A stretch of DNA of 63,985 nucleotides, filler included, from Stramenopiles sp. TOSAG23-2 (Eukaryota), in assembly GCA_900128395.1 (NCBI GenBank). It is 9 parts of 9 records of this genome, joined end to end, with 100 filler letters (N's around TTAATTAATTAA, not from the genome) between each part and the next. Parts side by side here need not be neighbours in the genome. Positions count along the whole stretch, not along the records: positions 28,874 to 35,970 come from LT650358.1; 8 more parts are not named here. One strand, 5' to 3'. A model generated the notes under the pieces. It saw only the letters and a list, made by a program, of their open reading frames with translations. It had not been told where the DNA came from and made no database searches. Positions 28,874 to 35,970 of this stretch are shown here, piece by piece. The position numbers were made by a program, and so were the translations under genes. Each line of letters starts with the position of its first letter. The first letter of the stretch is position 1.

Positions 28874-29394
28874 TTGTTGTTTTATTTTAATTTCTTATTA
28901 TTATTATTCAAATATAATAATCATAAGTATTATTATACTATTATAGCAAATTAGTATTCATAAAACATGGCACATGTATTGCTTTAACTATATTATGATA
29001 CGTTAGAATTGTTATCGATATATGTTATATTTTATATACCCCCATGCAAATGTATAGTACATTTTTTTTAATGGTGGCTACAAAAAGTCAAAAAGGTATG
29101 CTGGTATATAATGGTCGAGAATAATTCTTTTTTGCATACAGAAGAAAATCGATTAAATGTTTTTATTTACATAATCAATACATTAGGTTAATATGATGTA
29201 TTATGGTAGATGACTTTTCATTTATTAATAATATTTATAGAACATCGTATGATATATGTATGGAAGTCTGTTTTTTTTTTTCAAGAAGCTATATCATGTG
29301 GTGGTGTGGTGGTGTTAATATTTATAACGATGGATATTAAATACGATGATGCGTGCGTGCTATTAAAGGGTATTTGCTATTTGTTCTAATTTAT

Positions 29395-29595
29395 AAAGCT
29401 GTATAAAAGCTGTAAGCTGTAAGCTGTAAGCTGTATAAGCTGTAAAGCTGTAAAGTGTAAAGCGTAAAGCTAAAGTTAAAGTGGTGCTGTGTGCTGTGTG
29501 GTGTGCTGTATGCTGTATAGTTGTATTGTGTATTTTAAGTTTACAAAAGTAAAAAAGCTGTAATAAAAAAAAAAGCTGTAAAAAAAGCTGTAAAG
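29395..29595. repeat. Degenerate (AAGCTGT)n / GCTGT stutter array
   Basis: AAGCTGTAAGCTGTAAGCTGTAAGCTGTATAAGCTGTAAAGCTGT..., then TGCTGT variants and more AAAGCTGTAA units. Confidence 0.85.
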
Positions 29596-29615
29596 TTATT
29601 ATCCATCTTTCGTCA

Positions 29616-31271
29616 CTCTAGGAAACGTTTGTGGCCCCGATGTCCCCATGAGGCCCCAATGTTCCCGATGGCCCCGGTTTAAGGTGAATTTTCTTGCAAT
29701 AAATTTCCGAAATCCATTCTCCCGCAGTTCTCTGTTTTTGCTTCACTAAAACATAAAAACCCTAAAATATTTGTATACTACTGAAGTACAAATCTCCTAT
29801 AGATAACTCAGATGCTATGCAATGTAATTCACAAAAAAATAAGGGTCTGGGGCCGCTGTGAATTTAAACGTTAGAATTCCAACAAAAGGTTAAGGTAATA
29901 ATGTCTTTGAGTTTTGGCAGTTAGGATTTTTACGAAAAAAAGGCCAAAATATACACCGTGTTACCATTGCAAATATTTCCAAAAAAAAATTTTAAATCAC
30001 CAAGTTAAAAACTCGGTTTTATGGAAATTAGCGGGGCCATAGCACTAAATAAATTTGCACTAAACACTCAACAAATTTACAACTTTACAACACACACAAA
30101 CATATATAATATATATAATAGATAGATGAATAGATATATATCTGAACAAACAAAAGAAACATACTGTATAAAGATATTAGTTGCGAATATCTATTCGGAA
30201 TAATTGAATAATATTACTAATTTTGTCGAAGAATGAATCGAGACTATGCTATATTGAAGGTAAGTATTGTCATGCAGGTAAGTTCCGCACCTTTATAATA
30301 TAAATGAAAATCATTTAATGTCAACGAAAGTATAGCCTAGGTAAGTACTTCTGAGATGGTAGACATTAACATTACTAACAACGAATGTGAATTCCAAATG
30401 TCTGTTTCTTAAACAAAACAGGGTTACGCAGAAGGGTCTGCTAGAAAGTTAAAGCTAAGCCACATTGTAAATCAAATTGACCGTGTGAAAAACAGTGCAG
30501 CTGATCAAAATGCGCCAATTGATTGGTTTAGCAGCGATGAGGAGGAGGAAGGGGGAAATTGTTTGAAAAGACCGAGCATGCACCAGAATTAAGTGAACAT
30601 GAATTAATTGTACAAAAAAGTGCCGTACGTGTTGTAGCCATATCGTTACTTGTAAATTAATATTTAAATAACATATTTGAAGAAACGTACGTCGTACTGG
30701 TTAGTAGAAATGGTAAGTATTAATCATTGGTAAGTTTGTATACGCGTTGCAAGATGTAAATGATGCTAGTTTATTTTGATTTTCTTCGAGCAGTGCCGTA
30801 ATAAAAAATAGTGTAAAAAAGGTATAATCTTCTATATAATATTTATATAGTAACAAGTATATATTGTTTTATTGGAAAATTCCTCATAATTTAATGCATA
30901 ATATATAGGTAGATAAAACACTAAGTGTACAACATAATATAGTAATTTGTTATACTTTTATTTTGTAAATGAACACTTAATTCCCAAATTATCTAACCCT
31001 GACCCTAACCCCCCTAATGCTATTACGGCTGATGGATTCCCCCATCCGCCCCAATGTCCCCATGAGGCCCCAGGGTTCCCGGGGAAAACGCCTTTTTAAG
31101 GGTTTAATATTATTGAACATAATGTATGTTTAAAAATTTTTCAAAACTGTTCCAAAATTGCCAAAATGTGCCAAATAACCTTATTTCAATTTTATTAAAA
31201 ATAACAGGCAAATAACACTAGGGAACATCGGGGCCTCATGGGGACATCGGGGCCACAAACGTTTCCTAGAG
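29616..31271. mobile_element. Non-autonomous DNA transposon with ~51-bp GC-rich TIRs
   Basis: Left CTCTAGGAAACGTTTGTGGCCCCGATGTCCCCATGAGGCCCCAATGTTCCC matches the reverse complement of 31221-31271 with one mismatch. Extra internal TIR-like copy at ~31049-31080; telomere-like CTAACCCTGACCCTAACCC at ~30993-31011; no long ORF. Confidence 0.88.
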
Positions 31272-31714
31272 CATCTTTCATCTTTCATATCAGAAGAACT
31301 CAGAATTTTTGATCTTCCTATTATGTCACATACTCTAACAAGCACGAACAAGGTCCATCAAATCCAAAAAATAGGATTTTTGATATAAAAATATCTCTCA
31401 TGGCTTTTTTGCTCTGTGTGTGTGTTTGATCGTTTGTATATATATATATATTGTGTATTCATCCATATTTTACATCATATATATACAGTAGTAGTACAAG
31501 TAGTGTGCTTTGAACAAGTGGCGAGATAAAGAAGAATAAGAAGAGAATTCATTCAAATAAAAAAAAAATAAAAAAAATTTCATCATCAAATTTTCTCGTA
31601 ATTTTTTTAATTAATTTACGTGATTTTTTTGTGTAAAATTACAAGATATCTTTTGAAGTAAATTAGATCTTGATTTATATTCTGTATATCCTTTTGTTTT
31701 TAACATTTTCAACA

Positions 31715-33097
31715 ATGCCACATAAAATGAAATCTAAAGTGGTGAAAAAGAATAATAGTAATACCAATGTATCTTCAACAACAACTAAAACAACAACTAC
31801 AGGAACAGCAAAATCTTCCAAGACGCCAATCATAACAAATAATAATAATAATAACGCAAATAATAATAATAATGAGAATAATAGTAATACCAACGACTTT
31901 AACAACAATACCACTACCAACAAAAATTCTAACAACAGTGAAGACCATGTGATTGATTTATTTTATCAACATTTTGATGCTAATGGCAATGAACGGAATA
32001 CAATGGACACTTTGCCTGGTTATAAGTTTCCACTACCAAATAATGTTGAAGAAAAAGAACGCACATATTGTGAAATTGTATTACGAAGACGTTTTGAAGG
32101 TGATCCGGTTAATAAGAATACAGATGTATATTGGTATTTCTCATATGGTAACATTGTTTATAAATTTCGTTCACGTATTGAAATATTGAATCATTACAAA
32201 GAAAAAAAAATACCGTTGCCATTATGTATTGAACAAAAAAATAAATTGTTATTTAATAGTAAATATGTGTATAAATTGAAATGTTGTACTGTTGTTAATT
32301 CACTTGCCTCCTCGTCACCATCAATATCATTGAACGGGAACAGTAGTAGTAAGAAGAAGAGGAAGAAGCAGAAAGATGTGGATAATAATCAGAAAAAGAA
32401 GAGGAAGAAGAAAAGTACTAATGAAAAGAATGGAACAATTGTATCACCATCCAACAAACAAAGCAAGAAGATGAACAAGAAGAACAAAAGAAAAGTAATG
32501 AAACAAGATAGTGAAACACCAACAATGAAAAAGATTAAGAAATCATCTAGTAGTAGTGGTATTGATAATGGAAGAACAACTACAACATCGACAACGACGA
32601 CGACAACAACGACGACTAGTACACCAAATCGTAAAAAGAAAAAAGAACATGGACATAATGATGCAATTAGTAATAAAAAGACAAGTGTTGATAGTAATAA
32701 TATTAAAGAAAATACAGATAAAGTGATAGTATTGAATGAATTTGGTTCATTGGAAAAGAAAAAATTATCTGATTACCGTGTTAATAAAAAAGATCATCAG
32801 CAAGAGGAGGAAGCTAATAACAAAGCATCTGCATCACAAGTACAATATGAAATTGAAACCATTATGCGTAAACGGACAACACCTAAAGGTATTGTACAAT
32901 ATTATGTGAAATGGAAAGGATATAACCATCAAAACAATACATGGGAACCAGAACAACAGTTGGTAGAAGATGGTATACAAGACTTGATCGATGCATTTAA
33001 TATGACAGAAAGTAGGAAGATAGTTCATCATGCAGAACGGGAACAAGCATTTCAGAAATTGATTCAATCGGATGGTTCATTAGTTTGCATTGTATGA
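31715..33097 (+). CDS. Nuclear protein with an MBD-like domain and a C-terminal chromodomain
   Basis: EIVLRRRFEGD....TDVYWYFSYG..YKFRSRIEILNHY (~32070-32197, MBD-like); Lys-rich NLS region; YEIETIMRKR...QYYVKWKGY....NTWEPE..L (32846-~33000, chromo with aromatic cage). Confidence 0.82.
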   Translation: MPHKMKSKVVKKNNSNTNVSSTTTKTTTTGTAKSSKTPIITNNNNNNANNNNNENNSNTNDFNNNTTTNKNSNNSEDHVIDLFYQHFDANGNERNTMDTLPGYKFPLPNNVEEKERTYCEIVLRRRFEGDPVNKNTDVYWYFSYGNIVYKFRSRIEILNHYKEKKIPLPLCIEQKNKLLFNSKYVYKLKCCTVVNSLASSSPSISLNGNSSSKKKRKKQKDVDNNQKKKRKKKSTNEKNGTIVSPSNKQSKKMNKKNKRKVMKQDSETPTMKKIKKSSSSSGIDNGRTTTTSTTTTTTTTTSTPNRKKKKEHGHNDAISNKKTSVDSNNIKENTDKVIVLNEFGSLEKKKLSDYRVNKKDHQQEEEANNKASASQVQYEIETIMRKRTTPKGIVQYYVKWKGYNHQNNTWEPEQQLVEDGIQDLIDAFNMTESRKIVHHAEREQAFQKLIQSDGSLVCIV

Positions 33098-33638
33098 TAT
33101 GAGAAACCGGGGGGTGTGTGAATGATGGGGGGTGAATGGTGAAAAATGTGCGTGAGAGTGAGTTGTGTGAGGGATCTTTAAAACGTTGACACTATGTTTA
33201 TAATTGTTTTCATGCACAAACACACATTCTCTTTCTGCACGACCACTGCGACACTCTCCAGTCTCCGTCGTCCTCCATCACAGGTGATTTTCCCTTTGGC
33301 TTTCCTTTTGACTTTTAGTCTTTGTTGTTATAGTCCATGGACACGAAAGAAAATAGAAAAAAATACATTTCGAAAACAATACATATATAATATTAACGTT
33401 TAAGTTGAAAAAATATTGTCTATTAATTTCTATTATCATATTATCATCATCCTTTTGATATTTACCAATAGAACACATATATATATATATATACGAACTC
33501 GTATAAATATATTTCGAATATTTTTAAATTCAGATAGAACAAACGTGATTTATTCATTTTAATATATAAAAGATATAATAAATATCATCAATTGTAACAT
33601 TATAACAAATCGATCAAAGACAACGATTATTACGCAAT

Positions 33639-35276
33639 ATGGCATCATCTTCCTCCTCCTCCTCGTCGTCTAAAACAAAAACAAATTTAGCAACACAATT
33701 ATCTAGTATTGAATCGACGATTACATTGGAAAATATTACAACAGATCCATTATATAAAGAAGGAATGTCGATGTATGAAAAATTACGAATTATCAATATT
33801 CGTCGTAATGAAGCTGCATTAAAAGCAATTGGTTTAGATACAAATGAATTAACGACTATTGCACGTGGGGATAAAGCACCATTGAATGCAAATAAATCAT
33901 CGAATGGTAATAAGACAAAGAAAAAACGTAGAATACCAAAAGTCCCAACACGTTTTTCAACACGATTACGAAATATCCCAGCTGTGAATTACAAAGAACT
34001 AGATGATTTTGATAATAATAATACTACAAATTCATCAACAAATTATTATAAAAACAATAATAATAAAAGACAAAAACAATCAAACAATACTACCACAAAT
34101 CAAACGGAGGAACAAGATGATGACGATGAACCGATATATGTTCCATCTGAATTACCAGGTAAACGTCGACGTAAAGCAACTAAACATTTCAATCCAAATG
34201 ACAATGGATCATCTTCTTCATGTTCCTCCATCACCATGACTAAATCAATTGGACGACAATCAATTAAAGAATTGAATGTGAATTTAAAATATTTAGATAT
34301 GAATTATTTAGGAAAGATCATACCGCCAATGGGTGGGCAAGTGAAACGTGCGGTGATGGAAACGAGTTGTACAAGTGGTACACCAAAGTTCAGTCGTATG
34401 AGTGGTATACAAAAATGGAAGAATTGCATTCAATTATTTGTAAATGTATATGGAAATGGGTATAAAAATGTTTTTTTAAATGGTGGAAAGCAAATTACAG
34501 TAAGTTTGATTTGGAGTGACTTGGACTGGATGTGACTGAGTATGACTTGTTATCTACAACAATTGTTTCAATGTTGGAACAGTCCTTTCATAAATGTTTG
34601 GCAATAGTTTCCTTTTATACTAGATTCATAAATATATATGACTAACAATTGATTTTATTATTTACACACCAATACATTTATGGGCAATGGTACACATTCC
34701 GATACACCATTCTACGTATTGCATGCGACTGGAATTCAATTGGTCGATATATCAATTCAATCGTTCGATGGTACATTCGTAAACTGATGTAATGCATTCT
34801 CTTATATGACGTACATCTAAATTTATACATTCTTGACATATATTACTAAATTTATATGAATGTACTGGTTTATATTATGATTATATACGACCACCAACGA
34901 CAACAGTGGTTTGCACAATCAAGGCAATGGGAAGGTACCGATGTGATACAAGAAATGATACATAGTGCAGGTTCAATCATTGAAAATGAAGATGGTACCA
35001 TCTCCGATGAGATCGATGAGGGTACACCAATATTATTGTTTTGTAGAAACTTAGGTGTGGTAAGTTTATTTGATCTGATCTATTTTTATATTGACAACTC
35101 ACTAACATATTGTTCTACAGGGATATGTTTATTGTGGACGTTTATCATATATGGCACATGCACCGGAACGTATACCAATACGTTTTGTATGGCAATTGGA
35201 TGATTCAGAGACATTGATTAAACATTCAAAACCATTTCAAGATTTAGTCAGTGCATGTAATGAAATGATCATGTAA
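33639..35276 (+). CDS. Nuclear protein with an N-terminal YE..R..NI.RN...L..IGL helix and a C-terminal DUF3427/SRA-like (PUA-fold) domain; 3 exons (33639-34499, 34907-35059, 35121-35276)
   Basis: Two phase-0 GTAAGT...CAG introns (34500-34906; 35060-35120, with ACTAAC branch point) give LFVNV...YKNVF..GGKQIT|WFAQSRQ...PILLFCRNLGV|GYVYCGRLSY..H....PIRFVWQL. Confidence 0.75.
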
Positions 35277-35970
35277 AGAGTTACAAAAATACAGAATACT
35301 AGGATGGTTGATCTTGTTGGTATTTAGTTGTGCGGGTAAAACCGTGTGTGAAACAATGTATTAAACAGAGGAGAGAGACCTGAGGGGTTGCGTGTGCGTG
35401 TGTTTTATTAAAACAGAATTTATAAAAATGTTAAAAAATATATTTTTGATTATGTGATTTACATCATTTATTTTAAAAGAGATCTGTTTTAATTTTAAAA
35501 AAACTTTGTCAATTTTTCTCATTTCACCATATTCTCACCATCGACAAGCGTAAAAGATCTCATTATATACGAGTATAATTTGGTAATTCAATTGCATTAT
35601 GACAATGTATACAATTTATTCAAAATAACGACATTTACTTTAAACGAAGAGAAAAAAACACGTGATTTTAACGTTTGAATTCAATAATTTAAACGATAAA
35701 ATAAAATTGTATCACAACCTGGTAGCCATCATTATTTACAATACGTCAATAGATAATACAACGCGATATACTTGTTTTAAATGGTTGGTATGAAAAATAA
35801 TAGATACAATCAGCTTTATATCGCATTGTTGTTTTTTGTTTAACAACATGTTCAAAATATTATATTAAAATCTTGTAATATGAAATAAATAATTAAATCA
35901 ATATTCAATATGTACATATATGAAAGTAAAAACAAAAAAGAAAGGAGATATATCAAGATTTGAGGAGTCC

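What the first reader, a model, noticed from the sequence alone, without database searches (positions are those of the whole stretch)
31715..35276. Tandem pair of putative modified-DNA readers: an MBD-chromodomain protein followed by a spliced DUF3427/SRA-like protein
Seen: two co-oriented genes about 540 bp apart on the same contig, both with Lys/Arg-rich nuclear-type linkers. Gene 1 combines an MBD-like motif with a chromodomain. Gene 2 is visible only after splicing and ends in a domain matching the DUF3427/SRA-like pattern. Known: MBDs bind methyl-CpG, chromodomains bind H3K9/K27 methyl-lysine, and SRA/PUA-fold domains read modified bases. Inference: this may be an epigenetic silencing module in a heterotrophic stramenopile that links DNA modification to histone methylation. 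It sits 440 bp from a TIR transposon. Gene adjacency in eukaryotes is often chance, so the 'system' reading is a hypothesis.
Basis: partly seen in the sequence, partly recalled or inferred. Interest (0 to 1): 0.78.

Follow-up and report, generated by a model that had tools for sequence, protein, structure and literature searches.

The report
Protist SRA base reader, chance neighbour
Both genes are real, but they are probably neighbours by chance; the second belongs to a widespread, unannotated protist protein family whose base-flipping pocket differs from the usual methyl-cytosine readers and which also occurs in an organism reported to lack DNA methyltransferases, so it may read a different DNA mark.

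Summary
Both genes exist as described. Gene 1 (460 aa, one exon) has a clear chromodomain; its MBD-like part keeps the key residues, but profile and fold support is weak. Gene 2 (389 aa, three exons; intron 2 seen spliced in RNA contigs) ends in an SRA fold closest to the SauUSI/DUF3427 domain (modelled on a 53% identical homolog: Foldseek E=1.2e-4, Z 10.2). The two-gene module is not supported: only 1 of 11 distinct sequence groups with enough flank has gene 1 upstream, and that group is a near-identical relative. The transposon is absent from that relative's two loci. The real interest is gene 2's family: 963 clusters, with members in stramenopiles, green algae, Rhizaria and unicellular holozoans. 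Members join a conserved N-terminal helix, an HMGN-like RxSxR motif and an SRA pocket that matches SUVH5 by spacing, except that the cytosine-selecting Asp is Asn (143 of 145 rows). A member occurs in Capsaspora, listed with HELLS but no DNMT. Best reading: a non-catalytic, nucleosome-tethered adaptor that flips a pyrimidine, not necessarily 5mC. The HELLS link rests on a recalled motif, and no HELLS was found in this assembly.

The parts
31715..33097 (+). Gene 1: single-exon 460-aa protein, MBD-like domain + basic low-complexity linker + chromodomain
   Evidence: 3' part covered by RNA contigs of X1 and X3
31988..32293 (+). MBD-like domain (residues 92-193) with R126, D137, Y139, R152 at the positions of the MBD methyl-CpG residues (MeCP2 pattern recalled)
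   Evidence: No Pfam hit; Atlas 0.83 to MBD clusters, lead only; low-confidence model pLDDT 51; Foldseek rank 1 MeCP2 MBD at E=1.7; 6 MBD entries among 37 rows, best Z 2.9; one paralog in the genome
32846..33001 (+). Chromodomain, residues 378-429, aromatic cage Y378/W400/Y403 intact
   Evidence: Pfam PF00385 E=1.4e-15; best PDB hits CDYL and HP1/CBX5; residues read; cage equivalence recalled
33639..34499 (+). Gene 2 exon 1 (residues 1-287)
33774..33836 (+). Conserved N-terminal helix YExxRxxxIxxNxxxLxxxGL (residues 46-66), resembling the CDCA7 HELLS-binding helix and the WDR76/Cmr1 N-terminus (resemblance recalled)
   Evidence: 57 of 85 family members with a full N-terminus, 0 in 200 shuffles; similar helices in 7 other ORFs of this genome
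33951..33965 (+). RxSxR motif (residues 105-109), HMGN/Dsup-like acidic-patch anchor candidate
   Evidence: 78 of 85 members against a shuffled mean of 12.9, max 24; RRSAR/RRSSR arginine anchors in PMC12487698
34254..35273 (+). SRA domain of the SauUSI/DUF3427 type (residues 206-388, split by both introns); pocket M254-S255-G256, Y275, N277, W288, Q291
34500..34906 (+). Intron 1, 407 nt, GT..AG, phase 0
   Evidence: not bridged by any listed RNA contig; one X1 contig ends at 34499
34907..35059 (+). Gene 2 exon 2
35060..35120 (+). Intron 2, 61 nt, GT..AG, phase 0
   Evidence: skipped in RNA contigs of X1 and X3
35121..35276 (+). Gene 2 exon 3 with stop codon
29616..31271 (.). Non-autonomous TIR element, unrelated to the genes' function; an 8-bp sequence flanks both ends (left copy 4 nt outside the TIR)

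Best explanation
Two unrelated chromatin genes sit side by side by chance. Gene 1 is a lineage-restricted reader: a chromodomain for methyl-lysine (probably H3K9me or H3K27me) joined to an MBD-like DNA-binding fold. Gene 2 is a member of an old, unannotated protist family of non-catalytic adaptors. Proposed mechanism: the RxSxR motif docks on the nucleosome acidic patch (inferred). The SRA domain inserts its thumb residue (M254) from the minor groove and flips a pyrimidine between Y275 and W288 (fold shown on a homolog model; flipping inferred). N277 reads the Watson-Crick edge, which removes the usual carboxylate filter for C over T, so the ligand need not be plain 5mC (inferred). The N-terminal helix recruits a protein partner, most plausibly a HELLS/DDM1-type remodeler (motif conservation shown; partner inferred from a recalled resemblance).
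For: Fold: a model of homolog P0022's domain (pLDDT 83) hits SauUSI first (E=1.2e-4; Z 10.2, rmsd 2.7 over 114 residues). The top 15 rows are all entries with SRA or SRA-like domains and row 16 drops to Z 4.9. Pocket positions line up by spacing with SUVH5 Q392-S393-G394, Y416, D418, Y428, Q431 (PMC4740795) and are conserved: G 144 of 145, Y 130 of 143, N 143 of 145, W 138 of 139 rows. No catalytic domain passed a Pfam cut-off in 124 relatives scanned. Helix in 57 of 85 and RxSxR in 78 of 85, far above shuffles. Named members: Capsaspora, Diaphanoeca, Creolimax, Aureococcus, MAST-4, Amorphochlora, Cymbomonas, Chloropicon; the 8 named members aligned all keep the helix and the pocket Asn. Capsaspora is listed with HELLS and without DNMT1/3/5/6, Dim2, UHRF1 or CDCA7; Aureococcus with HELLS and without CDCA7 (PMC10538959 supplement). 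No synteny beyond near-identical relatives.
Against: No HELLS ortholog was recognised among the SNF2 matches of this assembly (24, 28; classified mostly by eye, one candidate checked against PDB). No BRG1/SNF2 was recognised either, so the assembly may simply lack both. No tool gave a CDCA7 or WDR76 sequence, and the helix found no such protein. The helix also occurs on an ORC4-like and other proteins, so it may be a general module with another partner. AbaSI has Asn at the equivalent place, reads (g)5hmC and was reported inactive on 5hmU DNA (PMC4081097). Residue equivalences are by spacing, not by superposition. The fold was predicted for a homolog, not for gene 2 itself. Gene 2's own motif reads RFSTR, not RRSxR.
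Confidence: 0.55

Rival explanations
1. Gene 2 is an ordinary 5mC/5hmC reader of bacterial DUF3427 origin that stands in for UHRF1 or CDCA7 in protists with DNMT5- or DNMT1-type methylation. The pair is still unlinked.
For: SauUSI's domain reads 5mC/5hmC (PMC7913695) and DUF3427 fusions bind 5mC/5hmC (PMC6765204). Asn can read cytosine, as in AbaSI. This genome has 7 C5-methylase matches on 6 contigs, two of which look DNMT1-like and one DNMT3-like by motif (no tree). No SAD_SRA or zf-4CXXC_R1 match was found here (weak negatives).
Against: Retention in Capsaspora, listed without DNMTs; 0 of 145 rows have Asp at the base-reading position; the carboxylate is described as the source of C-over-T preference (PMC6212794); CpG observed/expected in the window is 0.88, so there is no strong depletion.
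Confidence: 0.25
2. The first reader's module: genes 1 and 2 are a linked silencing unit that couples DNA modification to histone methylation next to a transposon.
For: Same strand, 541 bp apart, both chromatin-type; adjacency kept in L066 and L070; parts of both genes are covered by contigs of RNA runs X1 and X3.
Against: Adjacent in 1 of 11 informative groups. In L037, a close intron-less ortholog, a different ORF lies upstream. Very different breadth of homologs. The transposon is absent from L066 and L070.
Confidence: 0.06
3. The SRA domain binds DNA or RNA without reading any modified base, and the protein is a structural chromatin factor; the helix binds something other than a remodeler.
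For: The helix is shared by proteins with unrelated C-terminal domains in this genome; no binding data exist; HELLS was not found here.
Against: The most invariant columns are the predicted pocket residues, as expected for a pocket that is in use.
Confidence: 0.14

Closest known systems
SauUSI target-recognition domain / Pfam DUF3427 (PF11907; PDB 7CLG)
   Same: Closest solved fold; 12 of 124 relatives match DUF3427 at E<=0.05, 1 above the cut-off; thumb Met and stacking Trp correspond by spacing to M829 and W868.
   Different: Eukaryotic, stand-alone, no nuclease or helicase; Asn in place of D858; Gly in place of the methyl-contacting Y831; N-terminal chromatin motifs.
SUVH5 / UHRF1 SRA domains (SAD_SRA, PF02182)
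   Same: Same fold (Z 9.5 to SUVH5); thumb-Ser-Gly, two stacking aromatics and the following Gln fall in register with SUVH5.
   Different: No PF02182 match; Asn for Asp418; no SET, RING, PHD or Tudor domain.
AbaSI / PvuRts1I SRA-like domain
   Same: Asn at the base-edge position (Asn236 = UHRF1 Asp474, PMC4081097); same fold (Z 7.6).
   Different: A bacterial nuclease for (g)5hmC with a four-tryptophan pocket; 14% identity over the aligned part.
CDCA7 (HELLS/DDM1 adaptor) and WDR76/Cmr1
   Same: Architecture of an N-terminal partner-binding helix plus a C-terminal DNA reader (PMC11343034); WDR76 co-purifies with LSH-family enzymes (PMC4714748). Sequence likeness of the helix is recalled, not tested.
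   Different: No zf-4CXXC_R1 and no WD40 domain; HELLS binding not shown.
HMGN / Dsup nucleosome-binding motif
   Same: RxSxR core; RRSxR in 69 of 150 and RRS[AS]RL in 12 of 150 relatives; RRSAR and RRSSR anchor on the acidic patch.
   Different: Embedded in a reader protein; gene 2 has RFSTR.
MeCP2/MBD-family domains and HP1/CDY chromodomains (gene 1)
   Same: Chromodomain with intact cage; MBD-type residue pattern.
   Different: MBD not confirmed by profile or a confident model; no chromoshadow or other Pfam domain above cut-off.

Membership tests
SRA superfamily (gene 2) | SRA fold | tested here: met
   Homolog domain model; top 15 rows SRA or SRA-like, best Z 10.2
SRA superfamily (gene 2) | Thumb residue and two stacking aromatics lining a flipped-base pocket | tested here: met
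   M254, G256, Y275, W288 conserved; mapped by spacing to SUVH5
Canonical 5mC-reading SRA (UHRF1, SUVH, SauUSI) | Carboxylate (Asp/Glu) at the Watson-Crick edge | tested here: not met
   Asn 143, Cys 1, Glu 1 of 145 rows; equivalence by spacing only
Canonical 5mC-reading SRA (UHRF1, SUVH, SauUSI) | Preferential binding to 5mC/5hmC DNA | not testable with these tools
   Needs binding assays
Pfam DUF3427 (PF11907) | Score above the curated cut-off | tested here: inconclusive
   Gene 2 could be scanned only exon by exon (no hit); 0 of 28 close homologs; 12 of 124 distant relatives match, 1 above cut-off; Atlas 0.90 to a DUF3427 cluster
CDCA7 | zf-4CXXC_R1 hemimethyl-CpG zinc finger | tested here: not met
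   No such Pfam match in gene 2 or its relatives; the C-terminus is an SRA fold
CDCA7 | N-terminal helix homologous to the HELLS-binding helix | tested here: inconclusive
   Helix strongly conserved, but no CDCA7 sequence was obtained and searches with the helix reached none
CDCA7 | Binds HELLS/DDM1 | not tested
   No HELLS sequence was available for a complex prediction
MBD (gene 1) | Pfam PF01429 match | tested here: not met
   No match at E<=1; the genome-wide PF01429 search gave only one other locus, a Pin1-like protein by eye
MBD (gene 1) | MBD fold | tested here: inconclusive
   Model pLDDT 51; MeCP2 ranks first at E=1.7; 6 of 37 rows are MBDs at Z 2.0-2.9
MBD (gene 1) | Two arginine fingers plus Asp and Tyr | tested here: met
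   R126, D137, Y139, R152 read; the reference pattern is recalled
Chromodomain (gene 1) | PF00385 above cut-off with three-residue aromatic cage | tested here: met
   57.4 bits against cut-off 25.1; Y378, W400, Y403
Linked two-gene module | Conserved adjacency beyond close relatives | tested here: not met
   1 of 11 informative groups, the near-identical one; few of these loci are from close lineages

The most novel reading that the evidence does not exclude
The YExxR..N..L..GL helix is a portable docking helix for HELLS/DDM1-type remodelers, shared by CDCA7, WDR76 and a set of unrecognised adaptors (here fused to SRA, PARP-type zinc finger, HRDC, WD40 and TfoX-like domains). Gene 2's family is an ancient member whose Asn pocket reads a thymine/uracil-type base (U, T:G or 5hmU). 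That would give HELLS a methylation-independent, lesion-sensing input and explain why HELLS is kept in species without DNA methylation.
Probability: 0.12. Interest if true: 0.88.

Novelty: new variant of a known kind. Interest (0 to 1): 0.55.

Why it matters
SRA domains are the standard readers of methyl-cytosine, and eukaryotes are mostly known for the UHRF1/SUVH type. A second, bacterial-type SRA family spread over several eukaryotic supergroups, with a family-wide Asp-to-Asn change and a member in a species listed without DNMTs, points to a DNA mark or lesion that is not yet assigned. It is testable with one small domain and a panel of oligonucleotides, and Capsaspora offers a cultured host. 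If the helix binds HELLS, it bears on the open question of what targets HELLS where CDCA7 and 5mC are missing. The gene pair itself adds little.

Tried and rejected
A second copy of gene 2 in this genome (L002) was rejected as contamination: it is 99.7-100% identical over 636 nt to the five best-matching metagenome loci of a distant group, has GC 0.43 against about 0.32, and begins with what I recognise as a sequencing adapter. PF11907, PF10497 and PF02182 searches of the own genome were empty; these are weak negatives in an incomplete, intron-blind search. Sequence profiles A1, A2 and A5, protein P0078 and the helix region found nothing meaningful in the PDB. The helix region of gene 2 retrieved only 5 close orthologs of 30 candidates. 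No viral relative was found; the prokaryotic genome scan could not run on A5. L017 was rejected as HELLS: it is closer to SNF2H/ISWI (E=1e-141) than DDM1 (6e-112) and has HMG and PHD-like domains. L129 is a WD40 protein with the helix, but its identity as WDR76 could not be shown. A search for CDCA7 on long metagenome contigs got no answer. No complex prediction was sent: no HELLS was at hand and nothing suggests that genes 1 and 2 bind. Literature searches (listings only) showed no paper on this family; the library lacks most subscription journals, so this is not proof of absence. PMC12711577 had none of six terms sought.
Full report
Setting. The window is a chain of contigs joined by N spacers. 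The finding lies on one 7,097-bp contig, window 28874-35970, of a 32.8-Mb assembly in 9,146 pieces. The host is a marine eukaryote. A stramenopile of the MAST kind is likely, because the cluster of a 53% identical homolog carries a MAST-4 label, but I did not establish it.

Observation. Gene 1 is one open frame, 31715-33097, 460 aa. Gene 2 starts 541 bp later. Its exons 33639-34499, 34907-35059 and 35121-35276 give 389 aa without an internal stop, 53% and 56% identical to two intron-less homologs. Of 4 runs laid, RNA contigs of X1 and X3 (one study) skip intron 2 at GT..AG, and X22 crosses it unspliced. Intron 1 was not bridged; one X1 contig ends at its donor. These are contigs, so nothing is said about expression levels or co-expression.

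Gene 1. The chromodomain is firm (Pfam E=1.4e-15; nearest PDB chains CDYL and HP1), with cage aromatics Y378, W400 and Y403 (equivalence recalled). The MBD-like part keeps R126, D137, Y139 and R152, the pattern I recall from MeCP2. It has no Pfam match and an Atlas score of 0.83 (lead only). Its model is poor (pLDDT 51); MeCP2 ranks first at E=1.7 and 6 of 37 rows are MBDs at Z 2.0-2.9. I put MBD fold at about 75% and methyl-CpG binding lower. Only 2 homologs were found among 29 candidates, both with a chromodomain, plus one paralogous domain in this genome.

Gene 2 fold. Because the gene is spliced, I modelled the domain of homolog P0022 from 13 sequences (pLDDT 83). SauUSI is the best match (Foldseek E=1.2e-4; Z 10.2, rmsd 2.7, 114 residues). 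The next 14 rows are SUVH, UHRF1-type and restriction-enzyme entries, and row 16 falls to Z 4.9. SauUSI's recognition domain is DUF3427 (PMC6765204, passages) and has an SRA fold (PMC7913695, passages). Pfam DUF3427 matched 0 of 28 close homologs scanned out of 41 found. It matched 12 of 124 distant ones scanned out of 150 listed, 1 above the cut-off.

Family. The domain profile finds 963 clusters at E<=0.001 and 584 at 1e-10; only the best 150 were seen. Those that do are Capsaspora, Diaphanoeca, Creolimax, Aureococcus, MAST-4, Amorphochlora, Cymbomonas and Chloropicon. Of the 150, I kept the 85 with an initial Met and at least 80 residues before the domain. Of these, 57 have the helix pattern (0 in 200 shuffles) and 78 have RxSxR (shuffled mean 12.9, max 24). 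No catalytic domain passed a Pfam cut-off.

Pocket. SUVH5 uses Q392 (thumb), S393, G394, Y416, D418, Y428 and Q431 (PMC4740795, passages). By spacing, gene 2 has M254, S255, G256, Y275, N277, W288 and Q291. Across the alignment rows G is kept in 144 of 145, Y in 130 of 143 and W in 138 of 139. The base-edge position is Asn in 143 of 145, with no Asp. The TagI paper attributes C-over-T preference to that carboxylate (PMC6212794, passages). Against over-reading this: AbaSI has Asn there, reads (g)5hmC, and was reported inactive on 5hmU DNA in preliminary data, although the authors note that a rotated Asn could take uracil (PMC4081097, passages). The Asn therefore opens the ligand question without settling it. 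A second pointer is Capsaspora, listed with HELLS but no DNMT1/3/5/6, Dim2, UHRF1 or CDCA7 (PMC10538959, supplement rows); its member keeps the helix, G, Y, N and W. Against it, this genome has 7 C5-methylase matches (DNMT1-, DNMT2- and DNMT3-like by eye) and 2 MT-A70 matches (not classified), so 5mC may exist here; window CpG observed/expected is 0.88.

N-terminal motifs. RxSxR resembles the HMGN/Dsup arginine anchor on the acidic patch (PMC12487698, passages). The helix resembles, from recall, the HELLS-binding helix of CDCA7 and the start of WDR76/Cmr1. The papers confirm that CDCA7 binds HELLS through an N-terminal helix (PMC11343034, section 11 and passages; PMC12718391, passages). They also confirm that WDR76 co-purifies with LSH enzymes (PMC4714748 and PMC11331135, passages). 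Their alignments are figures I could not see. No profile of the helix alone was built and no tool gave a CDCA7 or WDR76 sequence, so the homology is untested. A search of this genome with one such helix region returned 8 of 8 scored candidates: the query, gene 2 and six more. The seven besides gene 2 lead to a PARP-type zinc finger, WD40, HRDC and weak TfoX-like domains, an ORC4-like ORF by eye and two unassigned ORFs; two of the matches have E above 0.5. The helix is thus a portable module, which fits an adaptor role but weakens a specific HELLS claim. No HELLS was recognised here, nor BRG1, so the absence says little.

The pair. I scanned 80 metagenome loci of the family for gene 1's two domains at E<=0.5. 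Only L066 and L070 had them; these are about 89% identical in DNA to this contig. The 80 loci form 23 groups, 11 with at least 2.5 kb upstream, so adjacency holds in 1 of 11. Most informative groups are distant (about 38-42% domain identity), which limits the test. L037, a close ortholog with 1.6 kb of flank, has another ORF upstream. The TIR element is missing at the same site in L066 and L070, so it came after the gene order was set.

Verdict. The most likely mechanism for gene 2 is a nucleosome-tethered, non-catalytic base-flipping adaptor. Shown: gene structure, fold (on a homolog), motif and pocket conservation, breadth. Inferred: flipping, acidic-patch docking, ligand and partner. I saw no paper on the family in four searches (listings only; PMC12695648 passages, did not bear on it). 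Two earlier notes of this scan describe what appears to be the same family in other genomes; I had written the helix idea down before seeing them, and they are not independent evidence. Novelty: new variant of a known kind. Interest 0.55.

Noticed in passing
window:29616-31271: Non-autonomous TIR element with no long ORF, absent at the same site in L066 and L070. An 8-bp sequence present once at the empty site flanks both ends, the left copy 4 nt off the TIR. Its middle (about 30422-30650) is 96-98% identical to pieces of a host gene on another contig that looks RING-type by eye (L117), so it carries captured gene fragments; a diverged relative lies on C819.
   Followed up: partly
L003:736-1917 (-): Protein with the same N-terminal helix and RxSxR followed by a PARP-type zinc finger (Pfam E=5.5e-13): a candidate break-sensing adaptor.
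   Followed up: partly
L128, L129, L130, L131, L132, L133: Six more ORFs with the helix: TfoX-like (weak), WD40 (possibly WDR76/Cmr1, not shown), unassigned, HRDC, unassigned, and an ORC4-like fragment by eye.
   Followed up: partly
L002:1-652: Contaminating contig in the assembly: identical to metagenome loci of another group, higher GC, starting with an adapter-like stretch.
   Followed up: yes
L161:1450-1850: Paralogous MBD-like domain (31% identity) with the same C-terminal KLKCC extension, in a long ORF with a duplicated stretch.
   Followed up: partly
L017:1-3897: ISWI-like SNF2 ATPase with an N-terminal HMG box and a C-terminal PHD-like finger.
   Followed up: partly
L004:262-1167: C5 DNA methylase of simple, bacterial- or virus-like look on a short contig (Pfam E=2e-60).
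   Followed up: no
L035:1384-2034: The only PF01429 (MBD) match of the genome search is a Pin1-like protein by eye, so probably a WW domain mis-hit.
   Followed up: yes
P0005: Database protein joining an alpha-amylase piece to a 99% identical copy of gene 2's domain start; probably a chimeric contig.
   Followed up: no
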